In this document: piece after piece, positions 1-39,401 of the stretch
Layout of the letters: each line of letters opens with the position of its first letter
Numbering within the stretch: position 1 is the stretch's first letter
Assembly (NCBI GenBank): GCA_964106645.2
Contig: OZ067043.1
From: Podarcis pityusensis
Taxonomy: Eukaryota
Reading direction: 5' to 3' (one strand)
Length of the DNA: 64,000 bases
The notes under the pieces: generated by a model
Told to the model about the DNA's origin: nothing
Database searches by the model: none
What the model saw: only the letters and a program-made list of their open reading frames with translations
Program-made: the position numbers and the translations under genes

Positions 1-121
1 TCTGCTTGAGTGCAGGAAGCTCCTGCAGCGAATTGGAACCTGCACCTTGGTTTTCAAATGGTTTCAGGAGTCAAACAGGCTCCCGGAACAGATTAAGTTC
101 AAGAACCAAGGTACCACCGTA
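1..121. mobile_element. Right end of a Tc1/Tigger-like MITE, truncated by the window edge
   Basis: ccggaacagattaagttcaagaaccaaggtaccaccgta parallels the right end of the 16300-16531 element. Confidence 0.6.
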
Positions 122-171
122 CTCTTTGGGTCCACCAATCCAGCAAAAGTCTGCAGACTTTATGTATTGCA

Positions 172-316
172 TTTATATGCCACTTTTCCCTCCAAGGAGC
201 TCCAGGCTAAAAGGCAGAGAATGGCCCAGAGTCACCCAGTGAGCTTCATGGCTAAGCGGGGATTTAAACCTGGTCTTCCAGGTCCTAGTCTGACACTCTA
301 ACCACTACACCTTACT
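172..316 (-). mobile_element. MIR/Squam2-like tRNA-derived SINE
   Basis: tggcccagagtcacccagtgagcttcatggc...ggatttaaacctgg...ctctaaccactacacc pattern. Confidence 0.6.
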
Positions 317-3300
317 GGCTTTAGGAAGCCAAAATGATTAATAGAATATATTTCTGACCCTCCCAGATCATAGGGCCTACCAATCAACTCAGTCTTTTCT
401 GGATTCAGCTTCAAACACCTTCTCCACATCCCTCCCTATATCCTGGACAGACACTGCCAAACCAGAATTTTAGGACCCAGGTTGATTAGAGAGAGAAATA
501 AATAATGCCATCAGGACACTCCATTTTCATGATGTTGTCCCATACATCCAGCAGAATAGGATGACAGAGTAAAATGCTACTGGACCTTATAGAAAAGGTC
601 CTGAGAAGATGAGAAGTCACCACCCCTTACCACTCTCTGACTGCCTAGCCTGGACTACTGAAGAGCAGTCCTGCGAACACCTGCCTACTTTTGCAATAAC
701 GCCAACCTCTCATGTGACATTGCTCTTCAATGACAGGTAATCTGCTGTGGCCATAAACAAAGATTCTGATAGTTAACTAGATTGGTCAATACCCAGGACA
801 GAAACTGGAGCAGGCCCATGAACTGCCAAGGGAGGTGGAAACAGCCAACGGACTACTTACACGACCCTAAGGAAGTTGCAGAATGGGCAGGGAGTCAGTG
901 TTGGGAAGCCTACAGATTAATTTCCCCCGTCTTGGAATAGTAGCACAGACAACTTCAGTCTGTGTTAATCCCAACTGGCCTATATAAAAACAAGGTTGAC
1001 TCAAGTAAGCTACCAGAGTTGACATCCCTCAGCATATCCTCTGTACCAGTGGACGGTATCAAGTGTTCCATGAAAATTGAGAAAGACCCCCAAATACATT
1101 TCAGCCACTCTGATGTCATCTCTAAGTTAAGCGCCTGGGTTGCATTTAAGCTTATATTCATAATTATATGTGTATCCTACAACTGTGGAACACTCTTCTC
1201 TCTCTCTGAACACTTGTACCTTATGGCTTTCATCCACATAAATCCACTTACTGTTATCCCCAATGACAATCCAAAGCATTAGAAGTCACTCAGGGCCACT
1301 GTGTACATGATGTTTCTCGGACAGTGATATTGCTTCCATTTGCGGGGGAAAGGCATGTACACTGACTGCCATTGGCAGAAAACACACATACTTAGCTTGG
1401 CACATGCAGTGGGAATCACAGCTGCTTCTGAACACACACAACATGTGGCAAAATAGACAACACGTGCATAATTCACTTATGAATTATGTGCATCATAAGA
1501 ACCTTGTAGGAAAGTGTAAAGTATGCAATGTTCCATAAAAGCGACAATGAACTTGATAAAAAGGACTGAAGGACAACAGGTAATTTTATGGCTGACAGTG
1601 CTTGTCCACACATGAGCAGGCACCTTCTAAATCTCTGCAACTCTCTCTAGGCTTTTAGAGAACCCAACTTGCTCTCCTGGAGGCTCCCCCTCCACATATG
1701 CCACAAACTTTAGGGTTCTCCTTGATTTTTGTAGTAGGAAAGGTAAGCTGTTTGGCTTGGGCAGCATTGTCTGCTAATTGCTCTAACTTCCATTAATAAT
1801 CTTGGCAACATCATGAGACACTTAAGGAAACTTATGTAATGAATCAAAAGTACTATTATGACTGGAGTTTCAAACAAATAAGCATCATTCTAAGCTTTAA
1901 CAATGGTCACCTAAGACAAATTAGGAGGTGGTGTTTATAACGAAGGTTCTTTCCATTTAGCTTCCATTAATTTGTGGGGAGGGGAATGGGGGGGGTGTTG
2001 ATGGATCAATGCCTAGGAAGATTTTGGGGAAATGTCAACCCAGAGCATGCTGGAATGTGTGCAACACAAGAACCAAAGCACAAAGTTCCATAAACAACAG
2101 GCAAAAGATGGGGACATCAATAACATCATATGTCATCATGTTATTGTTCCAAGTGTGTTCTGAATACATGAAGGCTCTATAATTTTGCCCAAAGGTTTTC
2201 ACAAAAATCAAAACCCTTGCTTTCAAGCAAACAAAACAAATTAAAAGTCCATGGTCTTTGTTTCTGAGAGGTGCTAAAATGCAGTTATGAGAAAGGAAGT
2301 TATTATAAAGCATTTAAATCTATTATTTTGAGAAAAAATAATAGCTCCTTGGTAGGCAAAGAGAATGAAGGTGAACACTGTAGAGTCATTACAGAACTGG
2401 CAGAGCAGGTATAACAGCCGTCATGACTTATGAAGGGTTCATAATATGTTGTTATGCATGGTAAATATCTGTTGGGTACAAAGTTTTAAGAGGCTCCTTC
2501 TGCACATGAACCAAAACCTTTGCCAACTGGATTTACTTAGCCAAAAACAACAAAAATTGTCGCCGAATTTGGCCCTGCTGTTATCCACAGGGAAGTGCAA
2601 ATATGCCCAAGGCCGTCTGATCAGAGTCAATAATGCCACATTTTTCATTGCAGTGAAATGGCTAACCTGGCATTCGAATTTGTAACATCAGAGTTGAAGA
2701 AGCCAAAAGGCCTACTTAAGTTCAACCCCCTTTCCATGAGGAAAAACCACTCCTCCACGAACATTTAACTTTAGGAGTTAGCTGGGAAGTTTTTTTCCGT
2801 ACAAACCTAATTGGGATTGATTTGTGTGGCGTTTCATAAACCCCTGAGCTGGCATAAGTCATTGGTAAAATGAAATTATTGGGGGATGCCATGGGAGTTT
2901 TAAAAAAAAACAAACACCAACAACTTAGTAGGAACTTACCACAACAGACAATAGTAAAAGTGGGGAGGAGGATCAGCAACCAGGGCAATAGAGGAGAAAA
3001 CAGAAAGTATTTTGATTAGGGAAAATCCAAAACAAATAAGCAGCATTTGGCAGCAAATAAACAAAACAAAAAAGGTATTTTAAAAACTGGAACTGGGTAA
3101 ATAACATGCAATGGGTATTAAAAGGCCACACAGAAGGAAAAAGTCCAGCAAGAGGAAAGTTCAAGTGCAAAGCAGTGGACAAGAACATAAACCATGGGTG
3201 TGTTTTACCATGCAATAGAACATTACTGAATAATGTTAAAATTGTAACTGATGACAGGATATACTTCAGGGGTCGATTTAGCATCACACACATTGATCAG

Positions 3301-5541
3301 AAAAGATGCTCGCAGGCTGTTGTCCCATTAATGGAACAGCCACAAACTGCCTTTTGCTGTGGTTTTGTGCCAATTTTAACACCACCAGGGAAACCCTTCG
3401 GGGGGAGGTGAATCATGGTGCAGTTGACGGAAGCAACCAAACTGTATGGGTGCCACTTCAAGCAAGCGCTTGAGCTAAATGGAGAGTCTGTGTGACATGA
3501 ACTTTGCCTTTCGGTTAAAGTGGGCATTGTAAAAGGCTGCACGTGCTTGGGCCAGCTCCCAGGTGGTACAAAAAAGCACACCAGCTCCAAAACTGATTTT
3601 GGGTCCCCAAGCCTCTCGTTGCAGATGGCGGGTCATGGAATTAGCACTCTTGATATTACATGCCTTGATGATGCTTTGACTTGTTTGTAATTGCTCTTCT
3701 GAACCAAAGCTCTAAACAAGAGAGCCGGACTCTTATCTGACAGAGCAACATAGTCAGAGAAAATCAGAAGCAGAAATCAGAACTTGTACAGCTTTTGGGG
3801 AGGTGGAATCCAAAAACTATTCACATATTTACTAACAACAACAAGAGAATGCAAAACACACATATTTCAGCTACGTACCAAATTCTTAAAATTCCTTACA
3901 AAATTGGTCTGCGTTGGTGTATATAAAAGATATGTATTTGGAGACACTTCTATTGTTTTTAAATGAGGATGGAGGTTTGATTGGTACATTTTAAACACAA
4001 CTGTAAGGAAATTAGAGGTACTCGAGTCCCACTGAAATCAGAAGGGCTTACATACTTGTGCCCTGTACCACCAATTATTTCAACGGGAATCTGATTTTGG
4101 ATGAGTTCACACTGAGCTTTATGCCATGGTTAACATAAGCCGGGGTTTCTAAACAAAAAGCACACCATGGCTTATTAGCATAATTTGCTTGTGGTTAATA
4201 AACCATGATAAAGCTACTGGGCGGGGTTCAGGCGAGAAAATTAAACCATGATTTATTAAACCATGTCTTAGTGTTATGTGCAAACCATGCCACTCTCAAG
4301 AATGTGCCTGTCCTGTGACAAAAAATGAAGGTGTCCGCGTTCAAACTTATCTATTTATAGTCTTGGATATTTGTTGCAGTATTTTCCATTATAACTATTT
4401 CCCGACAGATAGCCATCTTAGGCCGTTGCAGCAAAAAGAACCAAGAATCTTGAGATGTCTGAAAAATAAATGTGCAAGTCTTTAAGGGGCATGATTATCT
4501 AAAAGGCAGTTGGGCTGGAAATTTGCTCAGTATGATGGGCCATATTAGAACCATATCAGTAACTTCCAAACAGCTAATCAAATAACACAAAAGGGGTCTT
4601 TCTGCTTTTTGTCAAAGTCTGGGCACTAACCACAAATCTCAAAGGCAGAATTCTAAGGTTTCGGGAGGTAGTGCACAGTCCAGGAAGCAAGGGAACTGTA
4701 CAACCTCTAAGCTTGCTTCATGAATCTTAGGAAATCTTTTCAGCAAAACAAAGGCTGAGGCAGAGTCTCTATTTCATATAATTCTCTGTAGACCCTCCCC
4801 CAGTCCATGGGATGATGAAACTGGCATTCTTATACAAGCCAGGGCAAGGTTGGTGGATTGTATCTCCCACAAGATCTTCAAGGATTATTTTCATGGTTTG
4901 GGTCCAGACATACATCAGAATCAGCTGTATCAGGTCACTGAACTGCTGCAGAGGAATTTGAATTTTGTACATCTTGAATTTTGTACAAAAGACTCTATCT
5001 TGGCACCCAGTTGAAGCCCATGACCTAATTCTTAAGAGATTTGAAAGCTGGAACTAAACTCAAGTTCATTTCACTCTTGCTCAGAGCTTAATGTAGCAGA
5101 AGAGTATTAATACTACAGTTATACGTTAGGATACGAGTGAACGTCTTTCTAACGGGAAACAGTTTTTTGCATTCAAGGTCTTTGAGCATTAGAACTTAAA
5201 TCGACCCCTGTGTTGGGGGGTGAAAATATGGTAGGAAGAAATGGTATTCTGTGTCAATATTGATGAGAAATGGAATACAAAAATAACAAACTAGTGATGG
5301 TAAAAAGTGGCTCATTCACCAAAGAACCTCATTAGTGTCATAATACAAATGCATTCATGCACTACCTAAATTGTCTAAAATGACCACAACAGTTTTACTG
5401 ATACTTCTTTGGTTAATTAATTCAGGTCAATAGCAGACAGCAACAGAAATACCCACAGCTAGCACATGTGGGCAAAGCATGGGCAGGAGTCATCATCAGA
5501 CCAATCTATTAGTGTTCTTTACTAACTAAAACATTACCTAC

Positions 5542-5556
5542 CTCCCAGCCAGTACT
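5542..5556 (-). CDS. DOCK7: DOCK7 15-nt microexon STGWE
   Basis: Long U-tract...ttattacgcag|AGTACTGGCTGGGAG|gtaggt; identical to the recalled human peptide IVHQ-STGWE-RMF. Confidence 0.93.
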
Positions 5557-7309
5557 CTGCGTAATAAAAAGTAAAACAAAAAAAACAAAAAACAAAAAGG
5601 TATGTCACAGGAACAAGACCAGCTCCTTTTCAAAGGCCAAAACATAACCATCAACAATAAGGTGCTGTGCACTTGAAATGGCTTAGCTGCCACACATTTA
5701 AGTTAGCCTTTCGTTTCATAGCCCAGAATATTAAGTATGAAGAAGCTCCATTATCGGGCGCTGGAAATCGAATGTAAATGCAAATCCTCTGGCAATCGGA
5801 AATTATTACATTGCATTCACCATTCCAGCCTGAAGTTCAGCTACTGAAACCCAGGTTAGTCCTGCTGGAGGAATTCAGTTTTTGCGCGCTGAACGGCATG
5901 CTGTGGAACACAATTGCAGTTCCCAAGTAATGAATGGCAGTACTCATTTTGTGTCATTGTTGTTTATATCTGTAAAGCAAAATGCAAACCATTCTTCATT
6001 TGTGCTTGAGCTCCAGTTAAAAATAATCATATGGCACAACCAGCTGTCCAAACAGTATCTCCCTGCTAAATTCAGGAAGTAAAAATGTAACCAAAATGGA
6101 AAATAATAGCCTCAATCTAGCAGAGCCTCTGGAGGCCCTGCACAGATGCAAGTGCCCTCATTTATCAGTATATGGACAACAGCTGGCTGTAATTTTGTGC
6201 CCAGGCACCCACTGTTCAGCTTCAAATCCTGGTTTCAAATGCTTAAGGGGGCATGCTTAACATTAGCTTTCATGTTAATTAACCATGGTTAAATTCAGCT
6301 GCCGTTAGCCTGAACTGCCTGGGAATGTGCCTTAAGTTTTGCTTAGAGTCTAATCTGATCCCAGCTGCTGTGGTGCCAACTTGCCCTTGTTTTGGCCCCC
6401 ACATACCATAGAAAATTTAGCTGTTGCACTCATCAACATGGAAGAAGCAGGACCGCATTGAGTCACATGCTCTTCTCTTGGTATCCACGTGTGCTGCATG
6501 AATGTCTGCAGAGAGGGGTCCTTCGTCTCTATAACTATACATGCGAGAACCCCGTCCCACCCCAACATTTGTGCTGTAGATGCAGACAACATGGCAGGGC
6601 ACAGACTGGAGTGTGTGAGATGGGAGAGGGCTGCTTGCAGCAGCCTCACTTCTTCTTCCCATGCTGATGAACATGGGAGCTTTAATGCCTCCACTGGGCT
6701 CTTCTCTTGGCCCATGGAGCCATCTGTCAGTGACACTTCCAGCCCACTTCTCCACACCCAAAAGTAGAGTCATTCATTACTACGCAGCCTCTACAATGCA
6801 GGTCACGGTTTGCACAAGCAGAGAGATGTTGCAGCACCAAAAAAGAGATACCTGCCAAAAAGGTAGCTCAAAATGCAAAAGAGCAAAATTAAATCCCCAG
6901 GCTGTCCAGCTATATATAGCTTTGGGCTGCAATATTATACCCGCTTACTTACAGCTAAGTAACTAATGGGAGTAAACAGGATTGCAGTATGAAAACACCT
7001 TAACTACACTTTCACATGTTGTGAAGTCAGTCTCTAGCCTGGAAAACACAAGCAAGGAATGAATTTGCAGTACACTACATTAGAGTAACCTGACTTAGGT
7101 GAATGGCTCTGGAAAAATTAGGATTTATCTGATTGCTCTCTTTGCCTAGTTTTGCTGATTTTTTACACTTTGCAATATTGTCCACAAGCTCTCCATATTT
7201 TGAATGCTTTGATGACCTGGAAAACAACTGCCATTGAGGTTTCAATGTAACTTGAAGGGAAAATGACACAAATACTTTTAAGGATCTCCACACTACAAGC
7301 AAGAGCCTA

Positions 7310-7450
<141 letters not shown>

Positions 7451-8586
7451 CTACAAAACAGTGTCCATGTCAGGCGGTTTTATCGATCCATCAAAAAAAC
7501 AGACATGCAACAGCCTGAGTACAATATGTTATTAAAATGCTTATATTACAATAATGAAATTAAAACACTTGCTTTGGATTATTTGGTTACTGAGATGGAA
7601 TAAGTAATGCCTGATATAAGTATCAGTCGTGTGTCAGACCTGTGCAAATGTACATTTTGCCAAAAGTTTGCAAGACTCCATGCATCAAAGGCCCATTTAA
7701 ACTTGATGAATACTGATTTAAGACTCCCAGCTCATGTGCTGGTCCATGTGTGAAGGAAGCAGCTAACAGCTTATGTAGCAGCTGTGCTGGGATGCCAGCA
7801 TGTTTGCTTCAGCCCATGGAATGAGAGCCTTTTTAAAGATTATATAAAACTGTGTTCCAATCCACAGACAGAAGCTTCCTAACACTACATGGTCAAGGCC
7901 AACCTTGATGACACAGAAATTTGAGGAACTGTAGTGCTGAACAAGGTTTCATAGCAACTTCTGAATGCACATTCCAGTTGGATCCTGATTTAGCACAGCA
8001 TGTTGGAGAACCAGCTTAGCCATGATTCCAATGGCACAAAATACGTGGGCTGGTTCGCAAGCAACTTGAGTCAATGCTGCTGCCACTTAAACGACTGAAT
8101 TCAGTGCAGCTGAGCAGCTGAAATGCAAATACTGAAGCTTCTATACTTTTCATTGTGCATTTGAGTTGCGCCCAGTGTTTACTTACATGCAGATCAGGGG
8201 TGGGGAACTATTTTCTGGCCTGCATTCCCACCTGGAAATTCCCCATTCCAGCTGTGAGTGTGGCCAGAGGCAAAAGTGGGCGAAACAACTGATGTGATTC
8301 TCACCTGTGTATGCTAGGCTGTATTCAAGCCAGAGGTTTCTATGTCCACATCCCTCCCTCTCTCTCCATTCAAACAAACAAGAGGCTTTATCGCAGCTCA
8401 AGAACACTTGAGAAGAATGCAGAGCAGGTGAGAGGTGGGGTCCAGGGGGAGGGGCCATGTTATGAGAAGGGGTGTGGCCTGGGGATAATCCAGAGGCCTG
8501 CATTTGGCCCTCAGGCCTGTGGTTCCCCACCCCAATGCAGGACACTGATCGTATATACTATGCAACCATAAGGGAGTACTGTACTA

Positions 8587-8826
<240 letters not shown>

Positions 8827-8916
8827 TCATTCATCACCAGGTTCAGGCAATGCTCTGCTGCAAAGTCTGAAACCAAAGCAGCTTCCATTCTGCCGAAGTC
8901 CTACTCTAATGGAACA

Positions 8917-9046
8917 TGTTGTTGTTTTTTAGTTGTTTAGTCATGTCCGACTCTTCGTGACCCCATGGACCAGAGCATGCCAGGCACTCCTGTCTTCCAC
9001 TGCCTCCCGCAGTTTGGTCAAATTCATGTTAGTAGCTTCGAGAACA
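8917..9046 (-). mobile_element. 5'-truncated Bov-B (RTE) LINE 3' end
   Basis: gttgtttagtcatgtccgactcttcgtgaccccatggac is the reverse complement of the Bov-B 3' terminus with a (CAA)n-type tail. Confidence 0.75.
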
Positions 9047-39265: not shown

Positions 39266-39401
39266 CAGGCATAGGCAAACTCAGCCCTCCAGATGTTTTG
39301 GGACTACAATTTCCATCATCCCTAGCTAACAGGACCAGTGGTCAGGGATGTTGGGAGTTGTAGTCCCAAAACATCTGGAGGGCCGAGTTTGCCTACGCCT
39401 G
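39266..39401. mobile_element. Palindromic hAT-type MITE (136 bp)
   Basis: Near-perfect foldback CAGGCATAGGCAAACT...AGTTTGCCTACGCCTG; exact 8-bp TSD CCATATTC at 39258-39265 and 39402-39409. Confidence 0.9.

What the first reader, a model, noticed from the sequence alone, without database searches (positions are those of the whole stretch)
3267..5210. Perfect 14-bp long-range inverted pair: candidate RNA bridge
Seen: CAGGGGTCGATTTA (3267-3280) and TAAATCGACCCCTG (5197-5210) are exact reverse complements 1.9 kb apart. A second helix in nested order, TTTTACCAT (3203-3211) with ATGGTAAAA (5297-5305), lies just outside. Pairing would bring distal UGCAUG motifs (3105-3110, 3209-3214) to within a few hundred nt of the STGWE donor and would loop out the 30-nt candidate exon. 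RNA bridges delivering distal RBFOX sites are an established mechanism, but a role here is inferred. A hAT TIR reading (CAGGGG...CCCCTG) is disfavoured because there is no 8-bp TSD (atatactt vs tgttgggg). A rough chance expectation for one 14-mer pair in a 7-kb region is about 0.1, so the match alone is not decisive.
Basis: partly seen in the sequence, partly recalled or inferred. Interest (0 to 1): 0.7.

Follow-up and report, generated by a model that had tools for sequence, protein, structure and literature searches.

The report
DOCK7 RNA bridge to hidden intraexon
In a lizard DOCK7 intron, two 14-base complementary stretches, one of them also present in a distant vertebrate, likely pair in the RNA and would pull a 15-base microexon next to a hidden splice element that is predicted to switch which of two neighbouring splice acceptors is used.

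Summary
The 14-bp pair is exact. It lies in the 7,858-nt intron after the STGWE microexon of lizard DOCK7 (minus strand). Alone it is unremarkable: 22 of 40 control stretches hold such a pair. But the word occurs only twice in the genome, so it is not a transposon end. One arm is also the best-matching block between this intron and a distant vertebrate contig (12/14; about 4e-4 partners expected by chance). The partner arm was not seen in any distant species, so covariation is untested.

Just beyond the partner arm lie two UGCAUGs, the two longest AG-free runs in 74 kb, and the intron's only perfect donor. The next exon has two acceptors 9 nt apart, and gene models couple them to the microexon: included 23 distal / 4 proximal, skipped 0 / 26. 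The DOCK6-like paralogue has the same microexon, AG-free donor element and tandem acceptors, but not these arms.

Best reading (0.5): EPB41-type intrasplicing, with the helix bringing the microexon donor to the hidden element. No RNA evidence. The second helix and the 30-nt exon are unsupported. No matching report in the papers or scan notes searched; the human PCCR catalogue was not readable.

The parts
7319..7450 (-). DOCK7 coding exon ending in KIVHQ, upstream of the microexon
   Evidence: 100% identical to Podarcis muralis DOCK7 entries
5542..5556 (-). 15-nt microexon STGWE
   Evidence: 15/15 identical in L017; present in many vertebrate DOCK7 proteins
5356..5361 (-). proximal UGCAUG (RBFOX-type motif), 180 nt after the microexon
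   Evidence: collinear in L017; a UGCAUG also lies 50 nt after the paralogue's microexon
5327..5343 (-). conserved block containing ACUAAU (QKI/branch-point-like; label recalled)
   Evidence: 12-13 of 14 matches to L017
5197..5210 (-). 5' arm of the predicted RNA helix, 331 nt after the microexon donor
   Evidence: best lizard-vs-L017 block, 17/20 over 5211-5192 and 12/14 over the arm
4120..4300 (.). fragment of a dispersed repeat inside the loop; the only repeat found in 3100-5700
   Evidence: 33 other matches at 70-92% identity
3267..3280 (-). 3' arm of the predicted RNA helix
   Evidence: no listed change in 2 of 2 related organisms that cover it
3209..3214 (-). distal UGCAUG, 53 nt beyond the 3' arm
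3105..3110 (-). distal UGCAUG, 157 nt beyond the 3' arm
3095..3225 (-). 131-nt AG-free run, second longest of 5,012 in 74 kb of transcript strand
2937..3086 (-). candidate intraexon: 150-nt AG-free run, 71% pyrimidine, branch-point-like words at 3019 and 2976, ending in a perfect-consensus donor (+1 at 2939)
   Evidence: longest AG-free run in 74 kb and the only perfect donor among 11 GTRAG sites of the intron; analogous element in the paralogue

Best explanation
The two 14-base arms likely pair in the DOCK7 pre-mRNA and would loop out 1.9 kb, bringing the STGWE microexon donor close to a hidden AG-free, donor-ended element that is predicted to drive two-step nested splicing. Step 1 (inferred): the hidden donor at 2939 splices to the proximal (DGK) acceptor of the next exon and consumes that AG. 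Step 2 (inferred): the element's branch point and pyrimidine tract now lie directly before the next AG, 9 nt downstream, and the microexon donor splices there, giving STGWE-RMFG. When the microexon is skipped, the upstream exon joins the proximal acceptor directly, giving DGK-RMFG. Shown by sequence: the arms, motifs, AG-free runs, donor and tandem acceptors, and that looping would cut the distance from 2,455 to about 512 nt. Shown in gene models: the coupling. Inferred: pairing, both splicing steps and RBFOX action.
For: (a) The arm is the top-scoring block (17/20) between 3.5 kb of lizard intron and 665 nt of L017 intron, collinear with two other blocks; 12/14 was reached in 3 of 3,000 shuffles. 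Expected perfect partners in the intron for all 14 L017-matching windows: 3.5-4.3e-4. (b) The word occurs twice in the genome; the reversed control occurs 8 times. (c) The two longest AG-free runs in 74 kb follow the 3' arm and end in the intron's only perfect donor. In 799,600 control bases, 0 of 30 perfect donors had more than 41 AG-free nt upstream, and 0 of 1,248 GTRAG sites had 147 or more. (d) Coupling in 71 cluster members not chosen on this site: microexon in 23 distal / 4 proximal; out 0 distal / 26 proximal; left out were 2 odd VMDGK models, 6 hagfish and 10 without the junction. With a query biased to the uncoupled form, 94 of 120 hits were still STGWE-R. (e) The DOCK6-like paralogue has a 15-nt ASGWE microexon, an 89-nt AG-free run ending in a perfect donor, and acceptors 10 nt apart; human DOCK6 in the PDB reads SSGWERVFG.
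Against: No RNA reads, lariats or intermediates were seen. The partner arm was not seen in any distant species. The L017 arm differs at positions 6 and 14 and pairs with the lizard partner at only -15.6 kcal/mol, so the model needs an unseen compensatory change. Only one distant sequence was found, of undetermined organism, and its blastn hit alone had E = 0.15. By energy the helix is ordinary: rank 3 of 1,985 perfect helices and not in the top 8 extended duplexes. The paralogue lacks the arms (best 10/14) and its best candidate duplex lies within the shuffle range. Coupling is leaky: 26 of 120 carry both segments, and so do 3 of 4 microexon-bearing hagfish models; one medaka model has neither. 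Gene models are not independent. Two AGs precede the element, so it could be a 147-nt stop-containing exon. The DOCK8-like paralogue, which has no microexon, also has two long AG-free runs ending in weaker GTAAG words.
Confidence: 0.5

Rival explanations
1. Plain RBFOX RNA bridge: the helix only delivers distal UGCAUGs to the microexon, and acceptor coupling has another cause, such as 5'-exon-dependent AG choice.
For: Arm conservation; UGCAUGs 53 and 157 nt beyond the 3' arm; -23.1 kcal/mol and 1.9 kb span are close to the ENAH bridge (-19.8 kcal/mol, 1,728 nt; PMC8052449 passages).
Against: A conserved UGCAUG is already proximal. The 5' arm is 331 nt from the exon, outside the 50-nt rule used in PMC8052449. 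It leaves the AG-free donor element, seen in two paralogues, unexplained.
Confidence: 0.2
2. The deep element is a poison or decoy exon (3086-2940, 147 nt, a stop in every frame) that the helix and RBFOX sites regulate, tuning DOCK7 level or intron retention.
For: AGs at about 3094 and 3088 with a branch-point-like word at 3121 and a 131-nt AG-free zone upstream; the paralogue's element also has two AGs before it; decoy exons with conserved splice sites are known (PMC7373989 passages).
Against: A 71% pyrimidine, AG-free body is odd for an exon (general knowledge). It does not explain the coupling or the tandem acceptors in both paralogues.
Confidence: 0.15
3. The complementarity is chance; the conserved arm is a protein-binding or local-structure element, whatever the deep element does.
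For: 22 of 40 control stretches hold such a pair; unremarkable energy; two mismatches in L017; an unchanged 14-mer in a close relative is expected with P = 0.71.
Against: Expected partners for the conserved windows are about 4e-4. The partner falls in a stretch (3180-3311) with no listed change in two relatives (P about 0.03, post hoc).
Confidence: 0.13
4. The arms are terminal inverted repeats of a hAT-type DNA transposon relic.
For: The ends resemble hAT termini (recalled).
Against: Exactly two copies in the genome; no target-site duplication; the interval has no other copy except a 170-nt internal repeat; one arm matches a distant vertebrate at the collinear place.
Confidence: 0.02

Closest known systems
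Intrasplicing (nested splicing) in EPB41/EPB41L3 (Parra et al. 2008, 2012; originals not held; seen only as passages in PMC7373989, PMC3439910, PMC4394429, PMC4482092)
   Same: A deep intronic element upstream of two neighbouring acceptors; an internal splice first, then an external splice to the alternative 3' site; present in two paralogues.
   Different: Here the outer donor is an internal 15-nt microexon, not an alternative first exon; the element is 5.3 kb (paralogue 0.47 kb) from the acceptors, not tens of kb; a long-range helix accompanies it; nothing is tested experimentally.
RBFOX RNA bridges in ENAH and KIF21A (Lovci et al. 2013; original not held; passages in PMC6027157 and PMC8052449)
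   Same: Intronic duplex of similar energy and span downstream of a cassette exon, with UGCAUG just beyond the distal arm.
   Different: The proximal arm is 331 nt from the exon, a proximal UGCAUG already exists, and a splice-site-bearing element follows the distal arm.
Pairs of conserved complementary regions (PCCR; PMC8052449, passages and 5 supplementary files searched)
   Same: At least 10 nt, at most -15 kcal/mol, under 10 kb apart, intronic, non-repeat; would be energy group II.
   Different: Conservation is shown for one arm only. The catalogue of 916,360 human pairs is on Zenodo and could not be read, so the human orthologue of this pair may already be listed there.

Membership tests
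PCCR / conserved long-range helix | At least 10 nt, free energy at most -15 kcal/mol, within 10 kb, same gene, not a repeat | tested here: met
   14 bp, -23.1 kcal/mol, 1.9 kb; two copies in the genome; criteria
PCCR / conserved long-range helix | Both arms in conserved intronic regions | tested here: inconclusive
   5' arm 12/14 in L017; 3' arm seen only in two close relatives
PCCR / conserved long-range helix | Compensatory substitutions | tested here: inconclusive
   Two changes in the L017 arm; its partner lies beyond the contig end; other routes found nothing
RBFOX RNA bridge | Binding site within 50 nt of one arm and the exon within 50 nt of the other (operational rule of PMC8052449) | tested here: not met
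   53 nt and 331 nt
RBFOX RNA bridge | Inclusion depends on RBFOX and on pairing | not testable with these tools
   needs knockdown and compensatory mutants
Intrasplicing (EPB41 type) | Two neighbouring acceptors whose choice is coupled to the upstream exon | tested here: met
   23/4 versus 0/26 in gene models; leaky, and models are not independent
Intrasplicing (EPB41 type) | Deep intronic element with branch point, AG-free tract and donor (feature list recalled; originals not held) | tested here: met
   also in the paralogue
Intrasplicing (EPB41 type) | After the internal splice, the first AG downstream of the element is the distal acceptor | tested here: met
   sequence of both acceptor regions
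Intrasplicing (EPB41 type) | Splicing intermediate detected and element required | not testable with these tools
   no raw RNA reads were available
hAT DNA transposon | 8-bp target-site duplication | tested here: not met
hAT DNA transposon | Multi-copy termini or body | tested here: not met

The most novel reading that the evidence does not exclude
DOCK7, and DOCK6 through a homologous element, use intrasplicing inside the coding region: a vertebrate-old hidden intraexon, docked to a microexon by a long-range RNA helix, turns a simple cassette into an either/or swap (STGWE versus DGK) in the catalytic DHR2 region. This would extend intrasplicing beyond the protein 4.1 genes and join it to RNA bridging and microexon control.
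Probability: 0.4. Interest if true: 0.85.

Novelty: new variant of a known kind. Interest (0 to 1): 0.7.

Why it matters
The passages I could read describe acceptor-switching intrasplicing only for two protein 4.1 genes (PMC7373989). A short, minigene-sized case in DOCK7, a gene linked to infantile epileptic encephalopathy (search listings), would show how a microexon can dictate a splice-site choice 8 kb away. It makes sharp predictions: one compensatory base, one splicing intermediate, one antisense target. It also marks deep intronic positions where variants could matter, and it may bear on why deleting the zebrafish dock7 microexon gave cryptic splicing (PMC12626424).

Tried and rejected
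Transposon end: rejected. Second 9-nt helix: rejected. A nested 16-bp helix with G-U pairs (5089/3707, -23.4 kcal/mol) has no match in L017 and is not counted. 30-nt exon: six AG-30nt-GT candidates lie in the loop; only the most plausible (3908-3879) was looked for, in 311 proteins, with 0 hits, and no 10-residue insert follows STGWE in 249 junctions. A strong-looking duplex in the paralogue (-46 kcal/mol; 5' arm unique) is within shuffles (-38 to -56). Distant orthologues: of 5 metagenome hits only L017 is relevant; L014 looks fungal and L013, L015, L016 have high GC and no intron context; genome contigs gave one bacterial hit, viral contigs none. Translations of open frames across the 3' arm gave no hit and one unrelated hit. 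Rfam: none. Earlier scan findings: nothing relevant. Papers not held. The supplement of PMC12871342 was unreadable and may bear on local DOCK7 structure. The zebrafish cryptic-splicing result does not discriminate between the explanations.
Full report
Observation. The two 14-mers are exact reverse complements at the stated places, cannot be extended, and form the only perfect inverted pair of 13 nt or more in 1-9000. The UGCAUGs, the 9-nt pair and the missing target-site duplication are as described. The match alone means little: simulations give P = 0.165-0.175 per 7.1 kb, and 22 of 40 control stretches of this genome hold such a pair.

Setting. The host gene is DOCK7 on the minus strand of a lacertid-like lizard: the exon 7450-7319 is 100% identical to Podarcis muralis DOCK7 entries. 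It is followed by the 15-nt STGWE microexon (5556-5542), a 7,858-nt intron, and an exon left of the window that begins DGK-RMFG and has a second AG 9 nt in. In the RNA, 5210-5197 is the 5' arm and 3280-3267 the 3' arm.

Not a transposon. The 14-mer occurs twice in 1.5 Gb, both here; the reversed control occurs 8 times. The only repeat in 3100-5700 is a piece at about 4120-4300.

Conservation. A scan with a microexon motif gave 5 metagenome contigs. One, L017, carries the identical microexon with splice sites and an otherwise diverged intron; I infer a distant vertebrate, probably a fish, and did not determine the organism. Downstream it shares three collinear blocks with the lizard: a UGCAUG, an ACUAAU block and the 5' arm. 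The arm block is the best of 7 blocks reaching 16/20 or more; 12/14 was reached in 3 of 3,000 shuffles. Taking all 14 windows of the first 700 nt that match L017 at 12/14 or better, the expected number of perfect partners in the intron is 3.5-4.3e-4. This test is post hoc and rests on one sequence. The contig ends 200 nt after the arm, so its partner is unseen. The L017 arm differs at positions 6 and 14 and would pair with the lizard partner at -15.6 instead of -23.1 kcal/mol; a compensatory change is predicted, not shown. Of 4 runs laid, 2 cover the 3' arm without change and none covers the 5' arm; an unchanged arm is expected at this distance (P = 0.71), and the change-free stretch 3180-3311 is only suggestive (P about 0.03). 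Energy gives no support: rank 3 of 1,985 perfect helices, outside the top 8 extended duplexes.

What lies beyond the 3' arm. UGCAUGs sit 53 and 157 nt on. The runs 3225-3095 (131 nt) and 3086-2937 (150 nt, 71% pyrimidine) are the two longest AG-free runs in 74 kb of transcript strand, and the second ends in the only perfect-consensus donor among 11 GTRAG sites of the intron. Branch-point-like words lie at 3019 and 2976. In 799,600 control bases, 0 of 30 perfect donors had more than 41 AG-free nt upstream and 0 of 1,248 GTRAG sites had 147 or more; 6 had 86 or more. Long runs alone are not rare (22 of 130 nt or more). Pairing would shorten the path from the microexon donor to the element from 2,455 to about 512 nt.

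Coupling. Among 71 cluster members not chosen on this site, jawed-vertebrate models give microexon in: 23 distal, 4 proximal; out: 0 distal, 26 proximal. Left out: 2 VMDGK models, 6 hagfish, 10 without the junction. With a query in the uncoupled form, the best 120 of 642 hits were 94 STGWE-R and 26 with both segments. In the best 120 of 362 hits of the first search, 70 had the junction: 62 DGK, 2 both, 1 neither, 5 other. A human partial entry reads, in a shifted frame, as the microexon joined to the distal acceptor (P0018; my reading). These are gene models, related by descent and by annotation transfer, so the Fisher P of 3e-11 overstates the case. Hagfish models look looser (3 of 4 with both segments).

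Paralogues. Two other matches exist in the genome. The C17 gene, DOCK6-like by its exon sequence against PDB 9vm2, has a 15-nt ASGWE microexon with a UGCAUG 50 nt after it, an 89-nt AG-free pyrimidine run with branch-point-like words ending in a perfect donor about 470 nt before the next exon, and acceptors 10 nt apart, so that the proximal one would shift the frame. It lacks the DOCK7 arms (best 10/14), and its best duplexes are within shuffles. The C11 gene, DOCK8-like, has no microexon match but two AG-free runs of 106-108 nt ending in weaker donor-like words; this is unexplained and tempers the argument.

Mechanism. The anatomy fits intrasplicing as summarised for EPB41: an internal splice first, then an external splice to the alternative 3' site (passages in PMC3439910; PMC7373989). 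The internal splice would remove the proximal AG, and by sequence the next AG after the element is then the distal acceptor in both paralogues. The helix would bring the microexon donor, the RBFOX-type motifs and the element together. My estimates: helix real and functional about 0.75, nested splicing about 0.6, both working together 0.5. Rivals are a plain RBFOX bridge (0.2), a poison or decoy exon (0.15; two AGs precede the element and the 147-nt span has a stop in each frame), chance pairing (0.13) and a transposon (0.02).

Literature. Searches. DOCK7 with 'long-range RNA structure', 'conserved complementary regions', 'STGWE' or 'alternative acceptor' plus microexon gave 0 papers. In one search the list ranks papers with both terms first, and none of the 40 listed held both 'intrasplicing' and 'DOCK7'. 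Read as passages only: PMC12871342, PMC12626424 (supplement rows), 10.1101/159350 (no DOCK mention), PMC7373989, PMC4394429, PMC4482092, PMC12435732, PMC8052449 (5 supplementary files without DOCK7), PMC4829307, PMC3439910, PMC6027157. Parra 2008 and 2012, Lovci 2013 and two other papers were not held; the detailed intraexon anatomy is recalled. The human PCCR tables were not readable and may list this pair. PMC12626424 reports that deleting the 15-nt zebrafish dock7 microexon led to cryptic inclusion; this is compatible with several readings.

Verdict. Nothing is shown at RNA level. New variant of a known kind; interest 0.7.

Noticed in passing
L019:3155-3169 and L019:9045-9136 (G000:C17, DOCK6-like): Paralogous ASGWE microexon, AG-free donor-ended element and acceptors 10 nt apart; direct use of the proximal acceptor would shift the frame.
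   Followed up: partly
L021:4839-4946 and L021:7122-7227 (G000:C11, DOCK8-like): Two long AG-free runs ending in weaker donor-like words in the matching intron of a gene with no microexon match; possibly relics or chance.
   Followed up: no
window 5089-5074 with 3722-3707: A 16-bp helix with G-U pairs (-23.4 kcal/mol) nested inside the 14-bp pair; no match in L017.
   Followed up: partly
L011 about 7682-7670 (start of the DGK exon, minus strand): The lizard DGK codons themselves contain a donor-like word overlapping the distal acceptor; the zebrafish primer in PMC12626424 suggests it is not kept there.
   Followed up: no
PMC12626424 supplementary file 9: The dock7 RT-PCR expects bands 15 nt apart and its reverse primer appears to overlap the 9-nt DGK segment (my reading), so it could miss the STGWE-distal isoform.
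   Followed up: no
window 4120-4300: Old dispersed repeat fragment, 33 other matches at 70-92% identity; family not determined.
   Followed up: no
window 39284-39383: Perfect 26-bp inverted pair with a 48-nt spacer, probably a small repeat element.
   Followed up: no
window 8940-9000: Sequence resembling a squamate SINE (label recalled).
   Followed up: no
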